Assembly: GCA_963834215.1 (NCBI GenBank)
Contig: CAWIAM010000015.1
Coordinates: 43,881 to 107,880, forward strand
Direction of reading: 5' to 3'
Source of the DNA: an uncultured Acidobacteriota bacterium
GTDB taxonomy: Bacteria > Acidobacteriota > Terriglobia > Acidiferrales > UBA7541
Length of the DNA stretch: 64,000 nucleotides
Position numbers and translations under genes: made by a program. Below the pieces are notes generated by a model. It had not been told where the DNA came from, searched no databases, and saw only the letters and a program-made list of their open reading frames with translations. This document shows positions 1 through 18,359 of the stretch, in pieces (position 1 is the first letter of the stretch; every line of letters starts with the position of its first letter).

Positions 1-338
1 CCCAATCGGCGCCTGCGCAGTTTCATCAGCGATTGGTTCACTGCGATGCGCGCGAGCCAAGTATAGAAGCGGGAGTCCCCACGAAATGTGTCTATGTGCA
101 GGAAAGACCTGACGAAGGAATCCTGAAAAACCTCCTCGGCGTCTTCATGGTTCCGCGTAATCTTTTGCGCGAGCCGGAAAATCCGCGGTCCGTATCTTGT
201 CACGAGCTCTCCGAACGCATCCGGGTCGCGTCTCCTGGCGGCATCCACGAGCGCCAATTCGTTTGTACCCTCCAGGCGACCGATTGGACCGGATACGGGT
301 TCGTCGTTACTGATCCTGTCTAGCAAACCAGATGGCAT
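1..338 (-). CDS. ECF-type sigma-70 family RNA polymerase sigma factor (N-terminal part; gene runs off the window start)
   Basis: Absent from the ORF track because it is open at the window edge. Manual reverse translation from ATG (338-336): MPSGLLDRISNDEP...RRRDPDAFGELVTRYGPRIFRLAQKITRNHEDAEEVFQDSFVRSFLHIDTFRGDSRFYTWLARIAVNQSLMKLRRRRL, a typical sigma-70 region 2 of ECF/RpoE-like factors. Confidence 0.8.
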   Translation of the reverse strand, partial: MPSGLLDRISNDEPVSGPIGRLEGTNELALVDAARRRDPDAFGELVTRYGPRIFRLAQKITRNHEDAEEVFQDSFVRSFLHIDTFRGDSRFYTWLARIAVNQSLMKLRRRRL

Positions 339-427: not shown

Positions 428-754
428 TCATTGGCGTGAGAGCCGCAAAAATGAGGCGATCATCCTGGACAGCCCGCGCTTGCTGCGGATTTTCAGTTCC
501 TCAATCAGGTGCGTGTTGTTGAGGCCATTGGCTGTGAATTGCGCGCCATCTCTTGACATGGCGCGCAGCAGCCTTCTCCCACGTTTGTCCAGAAATGTGA
601 GTGCCTCGAGATCAACGATGCAGGTGCGTCCCTTGCGGATACGGTTTGCCGTACTCCAATTTGCCTTCACCTCGGTAACCTGGGATCCGATAAGGCGGCC
701 TTGGAAAACCCAGCGCATTTCCGTGGAGGTTTCGGTGATGATGATCCTCAGCAC
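428..754 (-). CDS. STAS-domain protein (anti-sigma-factor antagonist-like), paralog 1
   Basis: C-terminal 108 aa of ORF 428..940. VLRIIITETSTEMRWVFQGRLIGSQVTEVKANW...CIVDLEALTFLDKRGRRLLRAM... is collinear with the paralog at 1692..1970. GTG at 754 is preceded by GAGAGG (5-nt spacer). The longer ORF would overlap the upstream kinase gene. ATG at 790 is an alternative start. Confidence 0.65.
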   Translation of the reverse strand: MLRIIITETSTEMRWVFQGRLIGSQVTEVKANWSTANRIRKGRTCIVDLEALTFLDKRGRRLLRAMSRDGAQFTANGLNNTHLIEELKIRSKRGLSRMIASFLRLSRQ

Positions 755-878: not shown

Positions 879-1352
879 TCATTGGGTGCATCTCTTTCGC
901 ATATGGACTTCGGTGCCTTCGCATTCAAAAGAGACCTCATCCATCTGCGATCTCATCAACAAGATGCCTCGCCCGTTCTCGGCGCTGAGGTTTTCGGCAG
1001 CCAAAGGATCGGGAATCGCGTCCGGGTCAAATCCCGTCCCCTGGTCCTTGACGACCACAAACAAACCCTTGCCCAATTCGCACCGGCAATAAACGCGAAC
1101 CAGCTTGCCCGGATCCAGACGGTTGCCGTGCAGCACCGCATTATTGAGAGCCTCACGAAGGGCGATCTCAACGGAAAGCTCTTCCCCGGGGACGCAGCGC
1201 GATTTTTCGATCAAACGGGTCAACCGATCCACTAGCGGTGAGATGGCTTTGACGTCACTTGGCATCCGAGCTTCGATTTCCAGGCATGAATCAGTCCGGC
1301 GTGTTCCCACAGACTCGATTCGCAAATTCGCTGGATGGTTCACGATGAGCAC
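879..1352 (-). CDS. RsbW/SpoIIAB-like anti-sigma factor serine kinase (HATPase_c)
   Basis: 157 aa. N-box EALNNAVLHGN, G1 box VKDQGTGFD, G2-like NGRGILLM. Small single-domain GHKL kinase next to STAS genes. GTG start; the exact start is uncertain. Confidence 0.8.
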   Translation of the reverse strand: MLIVNHPANLRIESVGTRRTDSCLEIEARMPSDVKAISPLVDRLTRLIEKSRCVPGEELSVEIALREALNNAVLHGNRLDPGKLVRVYCRCELGKGLFVVVKDQGTGFDPDAIPDPLAAENLSAENGRGILLMRSQMDEVSFECEGTEVHMRKRCTQ

Positions 1353-1397: not shown

Positions 1398-1413
1398 TGC
1401 AATGTGCCCGCCA
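1398..1413 (-). promoter_or_regulatory. Candidate sigma-54 (-24/-12) promoter for the kinase-STAS-ECF sigma operon
   Basis: The minus strand reads TGGCGG-gcaca-TTGCA, with GG-N10-GC spacing as in the consensus TGGCAC-N5-TTGCW. It lies about 45 nt upstream of the GTG at 1352. Confidence 0.45.
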
Positions 1414-1495
1414 ACAGCACGCCGGAACAGAATTTGCGGCAAATGATTGAAGACAGAAGAGCTGTGCACGGCGACAAGGCGCTTTGAAGGGAAAC

Positions 1496-1550
1496 TGTCG
1501 GCGCCTCCGACACTTTTCCCGACAAGTGTCGACGGTCTACGACACTTGAA
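1496..1550. promoter_or_regulatory. Candidate enhancer (UAS): cluster of CGACA/TGTCG half-sites
   Basis: 17-bp dyad TGTCGG-cgcct-CCGACA (1496-1512), then CCGACA-ag-TGTCGA (1519-1532) and CGACACTTGA (1540-1549). It sits 85-150 bp from both candidate sigma-54 promoters. The 10-mer CGACACTTGA recurs at 4777-4786 (minus strand), 18 nt upstream of the sigma-54 activator ATG. Confidence 0.4.
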
Positions 1551-1647
1551 TCCACCCATCGCCCGTATTTCGTCTTGGCTCTTCCTTCGAACCGTTGTTG
1601 CTTCTGCTGCTTAGGGATTCATCGCGTTTGGTGCAGATCCAGTCTTC

Positions 1648-1663
1648 TGGCCCTGCATTTGCA
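1648..1663 (+). promoter_or_regulatory. Candidate sigma-54 (-24/-12) promoter for the STAS-PP2C operon
   Basis: TGGCCC-tgcat-TTGCA with GG-N10-GC spacing and a perfect -12 TTGCA. It ends 29 nt upstream of the ATG at 1692. Confidence 0.55.
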
Positions 1664-1691: not shown

Positions 1692-1970
1692 ATGCTGAGG
1701 ATTACGATCACCAACACGGCGAAGCAAGAACTGTGGACCCTGCAAGGCCGTCTTGTCACGCCGTGGGTCAGCGAACTGAAGGCGAATTGGAACAGGGCAC
1801 ATCGGGCAACTCAGGGCCGGAGGTGCATCGTGAATCTCCATGAAGTCACATTCATTGACAAGAGCGGGGAGCGAATGTTGCGGCGCATGTTCAACCAGGG
1901 CGCGCAACTTGTCGCCAGTGATGTGTATGTCAGGCAGGTGCTTGATCGCCTTCGGAGAAAGACGAATTAA
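1692..1970 (+). CDS. STAS-domain protein (anti-sigma-factor antagonist-like), paralog 2
   Basis: Internal ATG of ORF 1575..1970. MLRITITNTAKQELWTLQGRLVTPWVSELKANW...CIVNLHEVTFIDKSGERMLRRM..., with a STAS-like beta-alpha pattern. GGAG lies upstream of the ATG. Confidence 0.7.
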   Translation: MLRITITNTAKQELWTLQGRLVTPWVSELKANWNRAHRATQGRRCIVNLHEVTFIDKSGERMLRRMFNQGAQLVASDVYVRQVLDRLRRKTN

Positions 1971-3170
1971 TTGACGGAAATCCGGCGTCCGGGGATCAGC
2001 CAAATGAGTGATTTCGTGCAAAGTAAAACGCCGCAATCACTGCAAGAAATGGAGCCTATTCTTGAAACACTGAATGACGGCGTCGTCGTCGCAGACGATT
2101 CTGATCAGATTCTTTTTGTCAATACGGTTTTCGAGGAAATGACAGGATTCCCTCGCAGCCAAATCATCGGCCGGAACGCCCGTCAGTTGTATCACCGGGC
2201 CGATGAGCTTGCTCTCGCCCAGGCGCTTAACCAGAAAGCCCTGGAGATGGGACGGGCCCGCGAAGAGTTGTCCCTGCCCACGAAAGACGGCGGGCGACTG
2301 CCCGTGGTGGTTAGCCTGCGCGCAATGCACGGACCCGATGGAGAACATTTCTCGGTCGTTACGTTGACCGATATTTCGGAACAAAAGCGCACGGAAGAAA
2401 AGCTCCGCGATGCTATCGCGGGGCTCGAAAAGCGCCAGCGAGAAATTGACCAAGACCTGGTCCTGGCGGCTCGAGTACAGCAGAGCCTGGCACCCGAGCC
2501 CTTTCTCTGGGGAGGCATGGGTGTCGACACTTTCTACCAACCGGCGCATACAATCGGCGGCGACTTCGGCCTTGTGAGGCCGTCGGACGAGAAACATCTG
2601 AATCTACTGGTCTGCGATGTCTCGGGACACGGCATCAGTTCCGCGCTCGTCGCCAACCGAATATACTCGGAGACGGTTACGCTGCTAGGTAATCGTGCGC
2701 CGCTCGCTGATGTACTTCGCCGGCTGAACTCTCTTGTAATTCAGAATATTGGCACGTCAGGATTTTTCTTCACACTGGCGGCAGCCCGAATTGATCGCGA
2801 CGCCCGGACCATGGAGTTCGCCGGAGCCGGACACCCGCCAGCAATGATTGTTCAGCCCGGAGCCGAGCCTCGCCTGCTCCGGTCCCGAAGCGTAGTTCTA
2901 GGCATGTTGCCGGACGCGGTGAATGCCGATGCGACGCTTTACAGAGAGCTCGAGTATGGCGACCGCATCGTGTTGTACACGGACGGCCTCACCGACGTGT
3001 TCAACTCGCGTGGCGAAATGCTCAAAGTGGAAGGAGTCCAAAGCTTCGTCCGCGAAACAGCGCTTCTGCCATTTGGCGAAATGAAGCAAGGCATTCTCGA
3101 CCGCGTTGCCGCGTGGCGCGATGGGCCGCCGGGCGACGACGTGTCACTTGTGCTTGTCGAAGTGCGCTGA
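1971..3170 (+). CDS. PAS-domain PP2C (SpoIIE/RsbU-type) serine phosphatase
   Basis: 399 aa. N-terminal PAS (LNDGVVVADDSDQILFVNTVFEEMTGF), a coiled linker, and a C-terminal SpoIIE/PP2C domain (GGDFGLV, LVCDVSGHGISSAL, YTDGLTD, DDVSLVLVEV). The TTG at 1971 abuts the STAS stop; ATG at 2004 is an alternative start. Confidence 0.85.
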   Translation: MTEIRRPGISQMSDFVQSKTPQSLQEMEPILETLNDGVVVADDSDQILFVNTVFEEMTGFPRSQIIGRNARQLYHRADELALAQALNQKALEMGRAREELSLPTKDGGRLPVVVSLRAMHGPDGEHFSVVTLTDISEQKRTEEKLRDAIAGLEKRQREIDQDLVLAARVQQSLAPEPFLWGGMGVDTFYQPAHTIGGDFGLVRPSDEKHLNLLVCDVSGHGISSALVANRIYSETVTLLGNRAPLADVLRRLNSLVIQNIGTSGFFFTLAAARIDRDARTMEFAGAGHPPAMIVQPGAEPRLLRSRSVVLGMLPDAVNADATLYRELEYGDRIVLYTDGLTDVFNSRGEMLKVEGVQSFVRETALLPFGEMKQGILDRVAAWRDGPPGDDVSLVLVEVR

Positions 3171-3178
3171 AGAGCGGC

Positions 3179-4759
3179 TCACGAAATCTTTCGCGGATCA
3201 ATCCCCAACTTCTTCATCCGTGTGAGCAACGTAGTGCGCTTTAGTCCCAAGCGGGCCGCGGCGCCGTTGGGACCTCCGACGCGTCCCTTGGTTTCTCTCA
3301 GTATTCGTACAATCCTATCTCGTTCATCGAAGTTCTCGGCTCTTGCCGGAGACAACTTGGTGTCACCGCTTCCCAATTCAGGTACAGAGATCGCGAGCGT
3401 GCTGCTGCGCGTGAGGATCACTGCGCGTTCTACAAGGTTCTGAAGCTCACGAACGTTTCCGGGCCAATGCCATCGTGCCAGCTTCCGGAGCGCTGCCGCG
3501 GGGATATTTTCGATTCGCTTTTGCATGCGGCGCGCGTACTTTTGGCTGAAGTATCGCACCAACAAAGGAATGTCTTCCGGCCGGTCGCGCAAGGGAGGAA
3601 GGCGGATCGGAAAAACATCCAGGCGGTAGTAGAGATCGCTTCGAAATTGCTTTTCTTCAATCATCCGGTCCAGCTCACGATTGGTCGCAGCGATCAGCCG
3701 AATGTCGACTTTCTTCGTGCGTGTGCTTCCCAGCCGCTCGAATTCTCTGTCCTGCAAAACGCGCAGAAGCTTTGGCTGGAGTTCCAGCGGGATGTCGCCG
3801 ACTTCATCCAGAAACAACGTGCCTTGGTCAGCCAGTTCCAGTCGGCCAATCTTCTGTGTGACCGCGCCGGTGAAGGCACCGCGTTCGTGGCCAAAGAGCT
3901 CGCTTTCAAGCAAACCAGTGGGAATCGCTGCACAGTTTAGCTCGACAAATGTTCGCGCGTTGCGGCGGCTGCGCTCATGAATGGCGCGCGCGACGAGTTC
4001 CTTTCCGGTGCCTGTTTCTCCCAGCAGAAGCACGGTCGAATCACTCGTGGCAACCGTTTCGGCCAGTTGCAGAGCCTGCCGCAGCGCCGAGCTCTGCCCA
4101 ATAATCCCTTCAAAATCCGACGTGCTGCGAATCTCCTCTTCTAAATAAAGTTTTTCCTGCGCGAGTTTGTCTTTTAGCTCGGCGATCTCTCTATAGGCTA
4201 AGGCGTTCTCGATGGCGATTGCCACCTGACCTGCCACTCGCACCAAAAAGTCCACGTCCTCGAGGCTGAACGAGTTCTCGATTCGGCTGGCGATCGCTAG
4301 AACCCCGAGCGTTCGGTTTCGGCTGATCAGGGGCAGCATGCAGCCAGACTCGATGGCTTCCGCACGAGCCAAATGGGCTGAAAGCTCACTCTTGACATCG
4401 GCTTTTGTTCTTAAGAGAAGAGGTTTGGCGGTAGTAAATACACTGCCTATCTCGGACCCCTCGATCGGGCGCAGCAAACCCTCCTTCGCCACTCCCTTGC
4501 TTTCTGGAAAGTCCATCACGATGTGGCGCAATTGACGACGCTCCGAATCCGGAAGCCATACCCCGACGAGGTCGCAGTGCATGTCCTGTCGAATGCTCGC
4601 CGAGATTGTACGGAGGAGATCGCGGGGTTCCAAATTCGAGATCATCGCGTTCGTCATGTCCAGCAATAGCTTCAGTCGGTCGCTTTCGCGCCGCAGTTCC
4701 GGTGTTGCGCTGGGCGACTCTTGGGAGTTGAATGACGGGTTTGGTAACGAAGAGCGCAT
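3179..4759 (-). CDS. Sigma-54-dependent transcriptional activator with N-terminal GAF domain (Fis-type HTH)
   Basis: Walker A GETGTGKE, sigma-54 contact loop GAFTGA, Walker B LFLDEVGD, C-terminal HTH AAARLGLKRTTLLTRMKKLGI. The N-terminal ~200 aa is GAF-like. ATG at 4759 (GGGGA upstream) is preferred over the TTG at 4867 given by the ORF track. Confidence 0.9.
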   Translation of the reverse strand: MRSSLPNPSFNSQESPSATPELRRESDRLKLLLDMTNAMISNLEPRDLLRTISASIRQDMHCDLVGVWLPDSERRQLRHIVMDFPESKGVAKEGLLRPIEGSEIGSVFTTAKPLLLRTKADVKSELSAHLARAEAIESGCMLPLISRNRTLGVLAIASRIENSFSLEDVDFLVRVAGQVAIAIENALAYREIAELKDKLAQEKLYLEEEIRSTSDFEGIIGQSSALRQALQLAETVATSDSTVLLLGETGTGKELVARAIHERSRRNARTFVELNCAAIPTGLLESELFGHERGAFTGAVTQKIGRLELADQGTLFLDEVGDIPLELQPKLLRVLQDREFERLGSTRTKKVDIRLIAATNRELDRMIEEKQFRSDLYYRLDVFPIRLPPLRDRPEDIPLLVRYFSQKYARRMQKRIENIPAAALRKLARWHWPGNVRELQNLVERAVILTRSSTLAISVPELGSGDTKLSPARAENFDERDRIVRILRETKGRVGGPNGAAARLGLKRTTLLTRMKKLGIDPRKIS

Positions 4760-4952
4760 TCTTACATTCCCCTGTGTCAAGTGTCGCACAAATTTGCACG
4801 GGAATTCCGAGTCTCGTCTCCTGTTTAAGACTGTCACATGATCAGACGCTTGTGACCGGTGGCGCAATCTGACCCTCGCCGAAGGAGCTACTGGCGCGAT
4901 CGATCTTTCCGAAGAACACCATGATGTCGTTCGGATCTCCCATCTCGAGTTC

Positions 4953-5687
4953 CTAGGCGCCTGTGATGGTCCGCTCCAGCGAAGATAGACTCAACAGCAG
5001 GGCACAAGGGACCAGCAGAGTCCACACGCCCAGATGGTGCGCCACTGCCGATCCGAGCACGGCTCCAACGAGGAACGCACTCCACACGCTGGCCAACACA
5101 GCCGCTCGCCGCCAACGCGTGTCCGATGAACCCTGAGCGTCCGGTAGCGGTGTGCGCTTGATCCCCAACGCGAGGTGCTGAGCCAAACTGTTCAAGTCTC
5201 CGGTCACAAAACCCAGGCTGACGTTCTGTCCGCCGACGCGGGTGATGGATGTGTTCAAAATGCCCATCGCGGTGCTCAAAAGCGTGATACTCGACCATTC
5301 TGGCCACGCCCGGTAGGCCGCGATTGCGCTGATCAACAGCATGGTCGAGACCAGAACCGAAAGTCGAAGCAACGACCGGCGTTGATCGGCGCGCGGCATC
5401 GATGTCCCCACAAAAATACCGAGCACAAAGAATGGAATCGGGAGCAAGCTGTGCCCTGCAGCGGCCAGCTTGGCCTGCCCGGCCTGCGCACCGCCGGAAG
5501 TCGTGTTGCCGCTCATGAATGAGGCGAAAACGCCGAAGTTCAAAAGTGCGTACGAGTCCACATACCCCGAAATCAGCGCGAGGCCGGTGGCTCTGCGCCA
5601 TTCGGTGACTACGGTTTTTTGCAATGTCGGTACTGTCGCTCCGACATAGCTGAAGTCCTCGTGCTCCTGACGTTTGATCTCTGGCAT
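4953..5687 (-). CDS. YoaK/DUF1275 family membrane protein
   Basis: 244 aa, multi-pass and hydrophobic. The ALISGYVDSYALLNFGVFASFMSGNTT motif is typical of DUF1275. Confidence 0.7.
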   Translation of the reverse strand: MPEIKRQEHEDFSYVGATVPTLQKTVVTEWRRATGLALISGYVDSYALLNFGVFASFMSGNTTSGGAQAGQAKLAAAGHSLLPIPFFVLGIFVGTSMPRADQRRSLLRLSVLVSTMLLISAIAAYRAWPEWSSITLLSTAMGILNTSITRVGGQNVSLGFVTGDLNSLAQHLALGIKRTPLPDAQGSSDTRWRRAAVLASVWSAFLVGAVLGSAVAHHLGVWTLLVPCALLLSLSSLERTITGA

Positions 5688-16429: not shown

Positions 16430-17169
16430 GGCGTCACATTCTGCGCGACGTTGTGTGCCGGGTTATCCTGCGCGTGGCAATCCATGCAGCTTGCCTTTCC
16501 AGAGAATAGTGCGTCCTTATAGTCTTCGTGTGAAGCAATCCATTTGGCCGATCCCGCATGGCATTTCAGGCAATCGCTGTTCGGATAGGGATGGCGGAGC
16601 TTGATCGGCAAATGGAAGGTCCGAGTGTAATACTTGTACACATCGTTCATTCCTTCTTTTTTCGCTTCCACGGTACCGAATAAGCCATACGACGTGTGGC
16701 ACGCGTAACACTGATCGTCTGGAATATATCGGTTTTTGAAATGCAACGCCGCCAGGCTATTGCTTTTCTGGTCATGCATGTCATCCACAAACGATTTCAT
16801 CGTCAGATGGCACGAGGCGCAGAACTCCACGCGTTCGGCTTTCTCGAATACCAGGATCGTACCCACGCCGCTGATCAACATCGGAAAAGCCACCGCGCCC
16901 GCGATGAGCAGGCCCCAGGACACGGGGCCCGCGGCTGCGCCCCGGTATTTCAGCAGGCTGTATAGCACGACTCCGATTCCGATGATTGCCAGAGCGACGA
17001 GCACGCGCGCGCCGACGTGCTCCACCGGATCCTGCTGGAAGCGCTCGGCCTCCTGCTGCGCCCGCGCGACAAAAGGAAAAAGGAAAATGCCAGCAGCCAG
17101 GAGAATTCGCACCGCTGCTCCCGCGAGCAGGGGCTGGTTTGTCTCTCGTTTACAGGAATCCTCGATCAT
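16426..17169 (-). CDS. NapC/NirT-family membrane tetraheme cytochrome c (quinol dehydrogenase type)
   Basis: Hydrophobic N-terminal region plus four CXXCH motifs (CASCH, CYACH, CLKCH, CMDCH). The ATG at 17169 forms an ATGA overlap with the stop of the 15-heme gene, so it is preferred over the ORF-track start at 17247. Confidence 0.85.
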   Translation of the reverse strand: MIEDSCKRETNQPLLAGAAVRILLAAGIFLFPFVARAQQEAERFQQDPVEHVGARVLVALAIIGIGVVLYSLLKYRGAAAGPVSWGLLIAGAVAFPMLISGVGTILVFEKAERVEFCASCHLTMKSFVDDMHDQKSNSLAALHFKNRYIPDDQCYACHTSYGLFGTVEAKKEGMNDVYKYYTRTFHLPIKLRHPYPNSDCLKCHAGSAKWIASHEDYKDALFSGKASCMDCHAQDNPAHNVAQNVTP

Positions 17170-18359
17170 TGGTGATTGGTTGTTCCTTTGAGGGTCTGCG
17201 AATGGCATTCCCCACAGGTATCCGCGAATGTGTGGCAAGTAAAACAACTCCGTTCGTTGAGCATGGCAAGCTGCGCGTGACCGCCAGCTTTGAATTGCGC
17301 CAGCGGCATGTGGCTGCGCGGCGTCTCATTGTGGCAGCGGCTGCAAAAATCAGTTACGTGACACACCGAGCAGTTCGTACGGTCCAGCGCCGCATATTTT
17401 CCGTGGACGTCGTCCTTCCAGCGCGCGGTGTGCGATACGGGCATCATCACCTGGTGGCAACCAATGCATTCCTGCTGGCCGACGGCTGACGGCGCGACGT
17501 TCATGTGGCAAACAAAACAGGGCGCGCCCGCCTGGGACGCTTGGTCACCGTGATGGAGTCGGAAAGCTTCCGTATGCGATGGCGGCTTGACGATGCTGGA
17601 GTGAATCTCCGGCATTGGGCCGGATTGTACATCCACATGACAAACCTGGCAATTGGACATCTGAAAGTTAGATCCCAGGGTCTTCGATATGTCATGGCAA
17701 TTCACGCAGTCCGCCATTTTCGGCAGATCGAGGTTGGCAAGATTGGTGCTTTCGGCGATACCGTAGTGGCACGTCGTGCAATCGAGATGGTATGCGTCGC
17801 GATTCTTGAAATGCTCGGCGTGCGAAAATTGAATTTGCGGATATTTCCCTGAAACTACAAAAGAGGCCAGTTGGCGGTGAACCGTCGCGACGCTGGGATT
17901 TTCGATCTCTTCCGGCCGGTGGCACCCTCGGCAGTCCGCTGTCGTTGACTTCTCGCTGAGCAGCGGTTTCATTCCAGCCTTGGAATGGCAGCCGGCGCAA
18001 ATCACGTGATTCCCGAACGACGCATACGCGCCATCGTCCTGGAAATGATGGCAGAAGGTGCAGTCCGCGCGGAATCCGGTACGCGCATCCACTCGCGTAT
18101 GCGGATCCACGTGCCGCGCGTGCGAGAAATCGAAGACGATCGGCTGCTCGCCCTTGTAGCGCGGGAACGGCAGCAGATCTTCGGAGCTGGTCGGCGGAAA
18201 CACCGAATGGCACTGCACGCAAACCTTTTTCTTGATGTCTTTATCAAAATCGTCTTGATGGCAAGGCGTACATTGATCGTGGCCGGGACGTTGCAAGACC
18301 ACCGAGCCCGCCTTCGTCGCCACATGGCAGGCGTCACAATCCAGGCCCACTTGCTTCAA
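17166..18359 (-). CDS. 15-heme c-type cytochrome (c7-like repeats), main body; the N-terminus appears displaced by a frameshift
   Basis: 397 aa with 15 CXXCH motifs (about one per 27 aa). It has no signal peptide in this frame. The signal peptide is in the overlapping ORF 18334..18537 (see findings). Confidence 0.85.
   Translation of the reverse strand: MKQVGLDCDACHVATKAGSVVLQRPGHDQCTPCHQDDFDKDIKKKVCVQCHSVFPPTSSEDLLPFPRYKGEQPIVFDFSHARHVDPHTRVDARTGFRADCTFCHHFQDDGAYASFGNHVICAGCHSKAGMKPLLSEKSTTADCRGCHRPEEIENPSVATVHRQLASFVVSGKYPQIQFSHAEHFKNRDAYHLDCTTCHYGIAESTNLANLDLPKMADCVNCHDISKTLGSNFQMSNCQVCHVDVQSGPMPEIHSSIVKPPSHTEAFRLHHGDQASQAGAPCFVCHMNVAPSAVGQQECIGCHQVMMPVSHTARWKDDVHGKYAALDRTNCSVCHVTDFCSRCHNETPRSHMPLAQFKAGGHAQLAMLNERSCFTCHTFADTCGECHSQTLKGTTNHQ

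What the first reader, a model, noticed from the sequence alone, without database searches (positions are those of the whole stretch)
1398..1663. Divergent sigma-54-type promoters sharing a repeat-rich enhancer; the same 10-mer sits in front of the activator gene
On the plus strand, TGGCCC-N5-TTGCA (1648-1663) lies 29 nt before the STAS2 ATG. On the minus strand, TGGCGG-N5-TTGCA (1413-1398) lies about 45 nt before the kinase start. Both have the invariant GG-N10-GC spacing and a perfect TTGCA. Between them are five CGACA/TGTCG half-sites within 55 bp, including the 17-bp dyad TGTCGG-N5-CCGACA. That is the same 6-N5-6 geometry as NtrC-type enhancer sites, at 85-150 bp from each promoter. The 10-mer CGACACTTGA (1540-1549) recurs on the minus strand at 4777-4786, 18 nt upstream of the sigma-54 activator ATG. 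This suggests that this activator binds both places (autoregulation). It ties the regulator to the module without any database evidence.
Basis: seen in the sequence. Interest (0 to 1): 0.65.

Follow-up and report, generated by a model that had tools for sequence, protein, structure and literature searches.

The report
Shared enhancer driving two sigma-54 promoters
A 270-base gap between two back-to-back operons of an uncultured soil Acidobacterium holds two sigma-54 promoters facing outwards and a shared cluster of activator-binding repeats; the same unit recurs in over 100 related soil sequences, so it is a real but textbook-style genetic switch that defines a new regulon.

Summary
In the window alone the evidence is only moderate. 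The two -24/-12 matches score 10.8 and 9.1 bits on a sigma-54 matrix, ranks 7 and 14 of 128,000 positions, below the 10th percentile of known promoters.

Comparative data settle it. In 8 orthologous Acidobacteriota loci the invariant columns fall on the GG/GC promoter cores and the five TGTCG/CGACAC half-sites. A metagenome scan for part of the repeat array returned at least 120 stretches. Of 110 distinct, sufficiently flanked instances, 95 have TGG-N9-TGC on the correct strand 94-112 nt to the left. 59 have one 96-136 nt to the right, and only 9 have neither. These promoters have 64 and 35 distinct sequences and precede at least 15 gene families.

An ortholog of the adjacent GAF/AAA+/HTH activator lies beside the array in 27 of 34 instances with at least 4.5 kb of sequence to the right.

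The 10-mer before the activator gene is real and conserved in 10 of 11 close relatives. It may instead belong to that gene's own promoter, so autoregulation is unproven.

Verdict: a genuine bidirectional sigma-54 enhancer-promoter unit, and a new member of a known kind. No transcription start data exist.

The parts
1398..1413 (-). P(-): sigma-54-type promoter TGGCGGGCACATTGCA. GG is at 1412/1411 and GC at 1400/1399. The predicted start is near 1387. It drives kinase -> STAS-like 1 -> ECF sigma.
   Evidence: The matrix score is 9.1 bits, rank 14 of 127,968 positions. GCA..GCCAA is invariant in 8 orthologous regions although the other letters differ, e.g. TGGCAAGCGCAGTGCA in L004. The same element lies 94-112 nt from the array in 95 of 110 instances, with 64 distinct 20-mers.
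1440..1459 (.). Conserved block CAAATGATTGAAGACAGAAG between P(-) and the repeat array. On the minus strand it reads TCAA-N4-TTG, which matches 7 of 9 specified positions of the E. coli IHF consensus WATCAANNNNTTR. This is a candidate DNA-bending site.
   Evidence: The block is conserved in alignment A1. It is present in about 40% of the diverse representatives by a strict pattern, and the more distant variants keep CAAnnnnTTGA. The IHF assignment is inference only.
1493..1515 (.). Enhancer dyad A: AACTGTCGG-CGCCT-CCGACACTT (core TGTCG-N7-CGACA, 1496-1512).
   Evidence: The half-sites are invariant in A1 while the spacer varies. It was not part of the metagenome search pattern, yet it is present in 51 of 83 diverse representatives. 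The spacer is 7 nt in 46 of them.
1520..1524 (+). Extra half-site CGACA. With 1527-1531 it forms the tight inverted repeat CGACA-AG-TGTCG.
   Evidence: It is kept intact in 6 of the 8 protein-anchored orthologous regions; L006 reads CGACACGTGTCGA and L008 CGACAAGTGTCAA.
1523..1548 (.). Enhancer dyad C: CAAGTGTCG-N8-CGACACTTG, with perfect 9-bp arms. Its centre is 31.5 bp, about three helical turns, from the centre of dyad A.
   Evidence: It is conserved in orthologs. The spacer is 8 nt in 69 and 7 nt in 14 of 83 representatives.
1610..1642 (.). Conserved block CTTAGGGATTCATCGCGTTTGGTGCAGATCCAG between the array and P(+). Its role is unknown.
   Evidence: It is conserved in the 8 orthologous regions of alignment A1. 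No IHF-like or sigma-70-like match was found.
1648..1663 (+). P(+): sigma-54-type promoter TGGCCCTGCATTTGCA. The predicted start is near 1674, 18 nt before the ATG. It drives STAS-like 2 -> PAS-PP2C phosphatase.
   Evidence: The matrix score is 10.8 bits, rank 7. It is conserved in all 8 orthologs; L004's first copy is degenerate, but a second, perfect copy sits before the STAS gene. It is present 96-136 nt from the array in 59 of 110 instances.
879..1352 (-). RsbW/SpoIIAB-like serine kinase (anti-sigma type), the first gene of the leftward operon.
   Evidence: Pfam HATPase_c_2, E = 9e-24.
428..754 (-). STAS-like small protein 1, a paralog of 1692-1970.
   Evidence: Pfam STAS_2 is below threshold, E = 0.075. 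A profile of the family finds SpoIIAA as the best solved structure, E = 0.037.
1..338 (-). ECF sigma factor. Only the N-terminal part is present; the gene runs off the window.
   Evidence: Translation. A full-length ortholog from a related locus hits Sigma70_r2 and Sigma70_r4_2.
1692..1970 (+). STAS-like small protein 2.
   Evidence: Pfam STAS and STAS_2 are below threshold, E = 0.011-0.014. Profile hit to SpoIIAA.
2004..3170 (+). PAS-PP2C (SpoIIE/RsbU-type) phosphatase.
   Evidence: Pfam SpoIIE E = 2e-41 and PAS E = 3e-17.
3179..4759 (-). Sigma-54 activator with GAF, AAA+ (GAFTGA loop present) and a C-terminal Fis-type HTH. It is the presumed binder of the array.
   Evidence: Pfam Sigma54_activat E = 1e-72 and GAF E = 1e-13. 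GAFTGA is at 3880. The ortholog is linked to the array in 27 of 34 instances with at least 4.5 kb to the right. The HTH is almost invariant.
4777..4786 (-). CGACACTTGA, 17 nt upstream of the activator ATG. It is a single half-site copy: either an autoregulatory site or part of the gene's own promoter or leader.
   Evidence: It is conserved in 10 of 11 close relatives, and different clades read differently at this position. No sigma-54 or sigma-70 consensus is found nearby.

Best explanation
Region 1398-1663 is a bidirectional sigma-54 control region.

Proposed mechanism:
1. The GAF/AAA+/HTH activator encoded at 3179-4759 binds as dimers to two in-phase dyads, TGTCG-N7-CGACA and TGTCG-N8-CGACA. 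Their centres are about 31.5 bp apart. An extra half-site lies between them.
2. When a signal sensed by the GAF domain releases its ATPase, the activator assembles into the active oligomer.
3. It then loops to sigma-54 RNA polymerase waiting in closed complex at two outward-facing promoters. On the leftward side the loop is probably helped by an IHF-like bend site.
4. P(-) (start near 1387) transcribes an RsbW-like kinase, a STAS-like protein and an ECF sigma factor.
5. P(+) (start near 1674) transcribes a second STAS-like protein and a PAS-PP2C phosphatase.

The unit therefore puts a partner-switching module and an ECF sigma factor under one sigma-54 activator. In related Acidobacteriota the same array plus promoter also precedes DUF2934, radical-SAM/SPASM, outer-membrane beta-barrel, LolA-like lipoprotein, efflux and other genes. 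Together these form a clade-specific regulon.

Shown by sequence and comparison: the elements, their conservation, their fixed spacing and strand, and the synteny with the activator.

Inferred: binding, looping, the transcription start sites, sigma-54 dependence and the role of IHF.
For: 1. Both sites have exact GG-N10-GC spacing and TTGCA. They rank 7th and 14th of 127,968 window positions on a matrix built from 155 published sigma-54 sites. No sigma-70-like promoter is found in the gap.

2. In 8 orthologous regions the invariant columns coincide with the -24 and -12 cores and the five half-sites. P(-) changes its other letters (TGGCGGGCACATTGCA against TGGCA[AG]GCGCAGTGCA) but keeps GG-N10-GC.

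3. Of 110 distinct array instances, 95 have TGG-N9-TGC on the outward strand 94-112 nt to the left (mode 106). 59 have one 96-136 nt to the right (mode 129-130). 53 have both and 9 have neither. Wrong-strand hits number 8 and 5 and are scattered.

4. Positions not used for that selection match the sigma-54 consensus in the 64 distinct P(-) sequences: T before TGG in 61, C after GG in 62, then A in 55.

5. The promoters precede at least 15 unrelated gene families. Paralogous copies within one contig share only the array core, so the conservation reflects function and not recent copying.

6. The activator has GAFTGA. Its ortholog lies in the locus in 27 of 34 instances with at least 4.5 kb of sequence to the right, in at least five arrangements. 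Its HTH is nearly invariant down to 63% overall identity.

7. None of the 20 PP2C-paralog loci that lack the activator has an array.
Against: - There is no experimental evidence. Public metatranscriptome data exist only as assembled contigs of 85-95% relatives and give no start sites.
- In one run, contigs even cover the array region. This could be DNA carry-over or read-through.
- In isolation the two window promoters are moderate matches, below the 10th percentile (12.9 bits) of the training set. They have CC or GG where the consensus has AC.
- rpoN and IHF genes could not be looked for outside the 64-kb window, and there is none in it.
- Many of the 110 instances are homologous, so the counts are not independent events.
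- The dyad spacers vary by one base (6-8 nt), which is unusual for a rigid dimer site.
Confidence: 0.8

Rival explanations
1. The promoters are real sigma-54 promoters, but the repeat array is bound by another regulator. This could be a different activator, or a repressor or co-regulator. On this view the adjacent GAF activator is linked only by operon neighbourhood.
For: Binding has not been tested. 7 of 34 instances with at least 4.5 kb to the right have no activator ortholog in the fetched DNA. Five half-sites with mixed spacings are not a classical two- or three-dyad layout.
Against: Sigma-54 promoters need an enhancer-binding protein, and the array sits at the canonical distance from them. 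The activator gene stays beside the array through at least five rearrangements, including loci that have lost STAS2 or PP2C. Its HTH is nearly invariant wherever the array is found.
Confidence: 0.12
2. The 10-mer before the activator gene is not an activator-binding site. It is part of that gene's own sigma-70-type promoter or 5' leader, and its match to the array is a by-product of CGACA resembling TTGACA/GATACT-like promoter hexamers.
For: In a third clade the homologous position reads CGATACT. There it is the -10 of a good TTGAAT-N17-GATACT promoter. In clade II, TCGACA-N18-GACACT can be read as a -35/-10 pair. Only one half-site is present in the window, and L003 has lost it.
Against: An exact CGACACTT in a 130-bp region has a chance probability of about 0.004 (arithmetic on the sequence). 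It is kept in 10 of 11 close relatives, and clade II carries 3-4 half-sites there. Binding sites that overlap an activator's own promoter are a common route to negative autoregulation (general knowledge, not checked in a paper here). The two readings are not mutually exclusive.
Confidence: 0.5
3. The motifs are chance matches or a dispersed repeat, such as a miniature mobile element whose inverted ends mimic -24/-12 boxes. On this view there is no regulatory role.
For: Window-wide the -24/-12 pattern is at background frequency. The two promoters are inverted with respect to each other. The unit occurs several times per contig.
Against: The position and strand coupling in 95 and 59 of 110 instances cannot be chance. 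Copies within one contig share only the array core and the promoter consensus, not their flanks. Many instances have only one of the two promoters. The element always sits upstream of genes in the matching orientation.
Confidence: 0.02
4. Transcription here depends on the ECF sigma factor or on sigma-70, and the conserved boxes are sites for other proteins.
For: The leftward operon encodes an ECF sigma factor, and many ECF sigma factors autoregulate (general knowledge).
Against: No sigma-70-like promoter is found in 1300-1750. No conserved GGAAC..CGT-type ECF motif is present: the GGAAC at 1434 is on the wrong strand and is not conserved in L004, L005, L008 or L011. The conserved letters are exactly TTGGCA..TGCA with 10-nt spacing.
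Confidence: 0.05

Closest known systems
E. coli NorR and the norR-norVW control region
   Same: The activator has the same domain order: GAF sensor, AAA+ with a sigma-54 contact loop, and a C-terminal HTH. Several adjacent dyad enhancer sites lie upstream of a sigma-54 promoter. An IHF site lies between enhancer and promoter. All sites are needed to build the active hexamer (PMC2831303).
   Different: The NorR sites are GT-N7-AC; here they are TGTCG-N7/8-CGACA. NorR has three clean dyads, whereas this region has two dyads plus an extra half-site. In NorR the divergent gene is the activator itself. Here both divergent operons are sigma-54 targets and the activator gene lies 1.5 kb away. The signal sensed here is unknown.
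Enterobacterial zraP/zraSR (hydH) and hycA/hypA divergent sigma-54 promoter pairs
   Same: These are two outward-facing sigma-54 promoters 110-170 bp apart in one intergenic region. The Salmonella ChIP table lists hycA and hypA sites at 2999639-2999622 and 2999753-2999770, and zraP and hydH sites at 4388217 and 4388385 (PMC3844500). That each pair is served by a single activator (ZraR, FhlA) is my own recollection and was not checked in a paper here.
   Different: The activators, binding motifs and target genes differ. ZraR is a response regulator. The promoter separation here is larger, at about 235 bp between the -24 boxes.
Desulfovibrio vulgaris OrpR and the orp operons
   Same: Two divergent operons are co-activated by sigma-54 polymerase, IHF and one cognate activator encoded in the locus. 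The binding site is a 17-bp imperfect palindrome. Activator genes are usually co-localised with their promoters (PMC8359166).
   Different: orpR lies between the two operons, and each operon has its own binding region. The sensor is a PAS domain with an iron-sulfur cluster. The motif is GGGCGYRTTTTGCGCCC.
Pseudomonas syringae HrpR/S -> hrpL cascade
   Same: An ECF sigma factor is transcribed from a sigma-54 promoter under an enhancer-binding protein, giving a sigma-54 -> ECF cascade (PMC8999054).
   Different: Here the ECF sigma gene is co-transcribed with an RsbW-like kinase and a STAS-like protein, and a PP2C phosphatase is on the divergent arm. The targets are not type III secretion genes.

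Membership tests
sigma-54 (RpoN)-dependent promoter | GG at -24 and GC at -12, separated by exactly 10 nt | tested here: met
   Both sites meet this. The feature is invariant in 8 orthologs. It is present at a fixed distance in 95 (left) and 59 (right) of 110 instances.
sigma-54 (RpoN)-dependent promoter | Good match to the extended consensus TGGCAC-N5-TTGCW | tested here: inconclusive
   The scores are 10.8 and 9.1 bits. The training-set 10th percentile is 12.9 and the median is 16.7. The clade consensus TTTGGCA..GTGCA fits well at positions that were not used for selection.
sigma-54 (RpoN)-dependent promoter | Correct orientation and a short distance upstream of a gene | tested here: met
   There are 28 nt to the ATG at 1692 and 46 nt to the GTG at 1352. 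Downstream ORFs are found in most instances.
sigma-54 (RpoN)-dependent promoter | An enhancer-binding protein with a GAFTGA loop is encoded in the genome | tested here: met
   Pfam Sigma54_activat E = 1e-72. GAFTGA is at 3880.
sigma-54 (RpoN)-dependent promoter | rpoN is present, and transcription starts about 12 nt after the GC and depends on rpoN | not testable with these tools
   No rpoN is present in the 64-kb window. RNA data are contigs only and show no starts.
Upstream activating sequence (enhancer) of a bacterial enhancer-binding protein | Repeated dyad-symmetric sites about 80-150 bp upstream of the -24 box | tested here: met
   The dyads are at 1496-1512 and 1523-1548. They lie 83-135 bp from P(-) and 100-152 bp from P(+). 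The distance is fixed across instances.
Upstream activating sequence (enhancer) of a bacterial enhancer-binding protein | Half-sites conserved while spacers and flanks diverge | tested here: met
Upstream activating sequence (enhancer) of a bacterial enhancer-binding protein | Specific binding by the cognate activator | not testable with these tools
   Only synteny (27 of 34) and HTH conservation are available.
Upstream activating sequence (enhancer) of a bacterial enhancer-binding protein | An IHF or other bending site between enhancer and promoter (frequent, not obligatory) | tested here: inconclusive
   TCAA-N4-TTG at 1440-1452 (minus strand) matches 7 of 9 positions of WATCAANNNNTTR. The block is conserved. 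No such site was found on the P(+) side.
NtrC-type enhancer (TGCACC-N5-GGTGCA bound by a receiver-domain activator) | 17-bp dyad with NtrC-like half-sites, and an activator with an N-terminal receiver domain | tested here: not met
   The half-sites are TGTCG/CGACA. The second dyad is 18 bp. The activator has GAF, not Response_reg. It shares only the general geometry, including the roughly 32-bp spacing between dyad centres.
RsbV/RsbW/RsbU-type partner-switching module (the regulated genes) | HATPase_c_2 serine kinase plus PP2C phosphatase | tested here: met
RsbV/RsbW/RsbU-type partner-switching module (the regulated genes) | A STAS-domain antagonist with a phosphorylatable Ser after the conserved Asp | tested here: inconclusive
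   The STAS hits are below threshold (E = 0.01-0.07). The best solved-structure hit is SpoIIAA at E = 0.037. In that alignment the Ser of SpoIIAA's DSSG lies opposite Lys (FIDKSG in protein 2, FLDKRG in protein 1).

The most novel reading that the evidence does not exclude
One GAF-sensing activator and one composite enhancer motif control a previously undescribed regulon in Acidiferrales/Sulfotelmatobacter-like soil Acidobacteriota. The regulon is envelope- and stress-oriented and has at least 15 gene families. At its core is a sigma-54 -> ECF sigma cascade. That cascade is gated by an atypical partner-switching set whose STAS-like proteins lack the canonical phosphorylatable serine.
Probability: 0.45. 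Interest if true: 0.55.

Novelty: new member of a known kind. Interest (0 to 1): 0.45.

Why it matters
The result gives a precise, testable regulatory map for uncultured soil Acidobacteriota, where almost no transcription control is known:
- a defined activator,
- its probable binding motif,
- a clade-specific sigma-54 promoter consensus,
- a list of target gene families.

It shows a sigma-54 activator sitting above an ECF sigma factor and a partner-switching module. The target list (outer-membrane barrel, LolA-like lipoprotein, efflux and radical-SAM genes) fits the proposal that sigma-54 governs the cell exterior; that paper (PMC3162934) was seen only as a title and abstract. The architecture itself is textbook, so the value lies in annotation and regulon discovery and not in a new principle.

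Tried and rejected
1. Transcription starts from public RNA. Only assembled metatranscriptome contigs of 85-95% relatives were available (X21, X22). They cover the coding regions. In X21 the gap has about zero depth. In X22, contigs span the array of L034. No 5' ends could be called.

2. The Barrios 1999 sigma-54 matrix. The paper is not held. The file held as S3 Table of PMC12316311 contained protein (EBP) motifs, not the promoter matrix its caption describes. I built a matrix instead from 126 Desulfovibrio and 29 Salmonella published sites.

3. Matrix score alone. It is only moderate and would not have settled the question.

4. Mobile-cassette or miniature-transposon idea. Rejected, because within-contig copies share only the array core.

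5. ECF-type or sigma-70-type promoters in the gap. None was found.

6. A known RNA family in 1250-1800. None was found.

7. The terminator-like hit at 1512..1496. This is simply dyad A followed by a weak T run. It lies upstream of both operons, and its arms are sequence-invariant rather than covarying.

8. A sigma-54 promoter for the activator gene. None exists; the best score is -1.1 bits.

9. Literature search for a known activator with a TGTCG/CGACA motif. Nothing was found.

10. The other window hit, TGGCCGGGACGTTGCA at 18280. It appears to lie inside a long minus-strand ORF, so it is probably a chance match.
Full report
**Observation.**
- TGGCGGGCACATTGCA lies on the minus strand at 1413..1398, 46 nt before the GTG (1352) of an ORF.
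- TGGCCCTGCATTTGCA lies on the plus strand at 1648..1663, with 28 nt between it and the ATG at 1692.
- Five TGTCG/CGACA half-sites lie between 1496 and 1544, including the dyad TGTCGG-N5-CCGACA (1496-1512).
- CGACACTTGA occurs at 1540-1549 (+) and at 4786..4777 (-), 17 nt before the ATG (4759) of the activator gene.
Its centre is 31.5 bp, about three helical turns, from the centre of the first.

**Genes.** Pfam gives the following layout.

| Coordinates | Strand | Product | Evidence |
|---|---|---|---|
| 879-1352 | - | RsbW-like kinase | HATPase_c_2, E = 9e-24 |
| 428-754 | - | small STAS-like protein 1 | STAS hit below threshold |
| 1-338 | - | N-terminal part of an ECF sigma factor | translation; ortholog hits Sigma70_r2/r4_2 |
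| 1692-1970 | + | small STAS-like protein 2 (paralog of 428-754) | STAS hits below threshold |
| 2004-3170 | + | PAS-PP2C phosphatase | SpoIIE, E = 2e-41 |
| 3179-4759 | - | GAF/AAA+/HTH sigma-54 activator | Sigma54_activat, E = 1e-72; GAFTGA present |

**Chance, within the window alone.** The evidence is suggestive and no more.
- TGG-N8-TTGCW occurs 5 times against 4.4 expected. Two of the five hits fall in this one 339-bp gap, both pointing outwards.
- CGACA is at background frequency (163 against 169). Five copies in 49 bp has P = 2e-7, or about 0.015 after scanning 64 kb.
- CGACACTT occurs 7 times against 2.0 expected, and four of the seven lie in the two intergenic regions.
- I built a matrix from 126 Desulfovibrio and 29 Salmonella published sigma-54 sites. 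The two sites score 10.8 and 9.1 bits, ranks 7 and 14 of 127,968 positions. Both are below the 10th percentile (12.9 bits) of the training set.
- No sigma-70-like promoter and no Rfam family is found in the gap.

**Orthologous loci.** A protein-anchored scan of one genome per species found 28 loci, nearly all labelled Acidobacteriota (Acidiferrales, Sulfotelmatobacter, Terriglobia); two MAGs are labelled Verrucomicrobiia.
- Seven loci keep the divergent layout or part of it. An eighth, L002, begins inside the STAS2 gene, so its gap is not covered. The other twenty hold PP2C paralogs with neither the activator nor the repeat array.
- In the alignment of the eight gaps (A1, 76% mean identity) the invariant columns fall on three kinds of element:
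  - the GCA..GCCAA of P(-) and the TGG..TTGCA of P(+);
  - all five half-sites;
  - a block GATTGAAGACAGAAG.
- In the more distant loci P(-) reads TGGCA[AG]GCGCAGTGCA, TGGCAGGTGTAGTGCC or TGGCAGGAACGGTGCA. The letters differ but the GG-N10-GC spacing is the same.
- Extra copies of array plus promoter occur elsewhere in L005, L008 and L011, in front of other genes.

**Metagenome scan.** 110 distinct instances had enough flanking sequence.
- 95 have TGG-N9-TGC on the leftward strand 94-112 nt to the left (mode 106).
- 59 have one on the rightward strand 96-136 nt to the right (mode 129-130).
- 53 have both and 9 have neither. Some of these 9 are plainly unrelated chance hits, such as the tandem repeat in L086.
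- Hits on the wrong strand number 8 and 5 and are scattered.
- The promoters are diverse, with 64 and 35 distinct 20-mers. At positions not used for selection, the 64 distinct P(-) sequences match the sigma-54 consensus: T before TGG in 61, C after GG in 62, then A in 55.
- Dyad A was not part of the search pattern but is present in 51 of 83 representatives (under 85% identity to one another), with a 7-nt spacer in 46.
- Paralogous copies on one contig share only the array core. The fixed spacing therefore reflects selection and not recent copying.

**Regulated genes.** The first genes downstream are:
- STAS-like proteins (27)
- RsbW-like kinases (24)
- DUF2934 proteins (23)
- ECF sigma factors (11)
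- radical-SAM/SPASM proteins (9)
- outer-membrane beta-barrels (7)
- PAS-PP2C (6)
- LolA-like/DUF4292 lipoproteins (5)
- PQQ-propeller-like, HlyD-like, MFS, response-regulator and dehydrogenase-like proteins (named from sequence appearance only, not scanned)

**Link to the activator.**
- An ortholog (63-90% identity) lies in the locus in 27 of 34 instances with at least 4.5 kb of sequence to the right.
- It occurs in at least five arrangements: beyond STAS2-PP2C; directly convergent after STAS2; after a deleted STAS2-PP2C; divergent from the array; and with its 3' end abutting the array.
- Its HTH, GAAARLGLKRTTLLTRMKKLGI, is almost invariant, even in the 63-67% orthologs.
- This is strong guilt by association but is not proof of binding.

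**The 10-mer before the activator gene.**
- The block AATTTGTGCGACACT is kept in 10 of 11 close relatives, and L003 has lost it.
- A second clade has three or four half-sites there.
- In a third clade the homologous position reads CGATACT, where it serves as the -10 of a sigma-70-like TTGAAT-N17-GATACT promoter with a GTGTCG about 70 nt upstream.
- In the window, neither a sigma-54 site (best -1.1 bits) nor a sigma-70 consensus lies upstream of the activator gene.
- The element may be an operator overlapping the gene's own promoter, which would give negative autoregulation, or simply part of that promoter. I put autoregulation at roughly 0.3-0.5.

**Mechanism (inferred).**
1. Activator dimers occupy the two in-phase dyads and the extra half-site.
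2. A signal at the GAF domain releases the ATPase.
3. The oligomer loops to closed sigma-54 complexes at P(-) (start near 1387) and P(+) (start near 1674). On the leftward side the loop may be helped by the IHF-like block at 1440-1459, which matches 7 of 9 consensus positions.
4. The output is co-induction of a partner-switching set and an ECF sigma factor, that is, a sigma-54 -> ECF cascade.

**Comparison with known systems.** The architecture is textbook.
- NorR has GAF/AAA+/HTH, several dyads and an IHF site.
- The enterobacterial zraP/zraSR and hycA/hypA pairs are divergent sigma-54 promoters in one gap.
- OrpR controls two divergent operons with IHF.
- HrpR/S activates the ECF gene hrpL.
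- This is not an NtrC-type enhancer. The half-sites differ, one dyad is 18 bp, and the activator has no receiver domain.
- I found no paper describing this motif, activator or regulon.

**What is missing.** There are no start sites, because the RNA data are contigs only. There are no binding data. There is no check for rpoN or IHF genes outside the window.

**Verdict.** The core interpretation is well supported by comparative genomics, and autoregulation is unresolved. This is a new member of a known kind, of moderate interest.

Noticed in passing
L001:5263-5688, L004:5190-5687, L006:5283-5688: In three relatives P(+) is duplicated. The first copy is followed by a remnant of the STAS2 N-terminus (MLRITA...) fused or adjacent to a DUF2934 gene. 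A second promoter copy (e.g. TGGCCCTGATTTTGCG) then sits before the intact STAS2. In L004 the first copy has decayed to CGGCCATTCATTTGCA.
   Followed up: partly
L031:400-1000 (also L052 and L074): STAS2 and PP2C have been deleted. P(+) is intact and is followed only by a 9-codon remnant (MLPVKVINN). It now points at the 3' end of the convergent activator gene about 180 nt away, so it may produce antisense transcription into the activator gene.
   Followed up: partly
window 1692-1970 and 428-754: The two STAS-like proteins miss Pfam thresholds. In the profile alignment to SpoIIAA, a Lys lies opposite the first Ser of SpoIIAA's DSSG motif, which I take from memory to be the phosphorylated serine (FIDKSG and FLDKRG). 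Protein 1 has no Ser nearby at all. The kinase may therefore act as a binding partner and not through canonical Ser phosphorylation.
   Followed up: partly
window 1610-1642: The block CTTAGGGATTCATCGCGTTTGGTGCAGATCCAG between the array and P(+) is conserved across orthologs. It matches no IHF-like or promoter consensus, and its function is unknown.
   Followed up: no
window 2521-2530: The perfect palindrome GTGTCGACAC (two abutting half-sites) lies inside the PP2C coding region, in the conserved peptide MGVDTFYQ. It is probably constrained by coding, but it is one of the seven CGACACTT hits in the window.
   Followed up: no
L034:5671-5966: Contigs of a run labelled as a metatranscriptome (X22) cover the repeat array and P(+) region at depth 20-30. 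The stretch just left of it (5436-5569) has none. This could be DNA carry-over, read-through, or pile-up from many related copies.
   Followed up: no
L011:8750-8830 and the homologous regions of L030, L039, L057, L068, L091 and L117: In this clade the activator gene is divergent from a second array about 390 nt away. It has a sigma-70-like TTGAAT-N17-GATACT promoter with a GTGTCG half-site just upstream of the -35.
   Followed up: partly
window 18280-18295: Another TGG-N8-TTGCA match (TGGCCGGGACGTTGCA, 8.9 bits). It appears to lie inside a long minus-strand ORF (17166..18359), so it is probably a chance match.
   Followed up: partly
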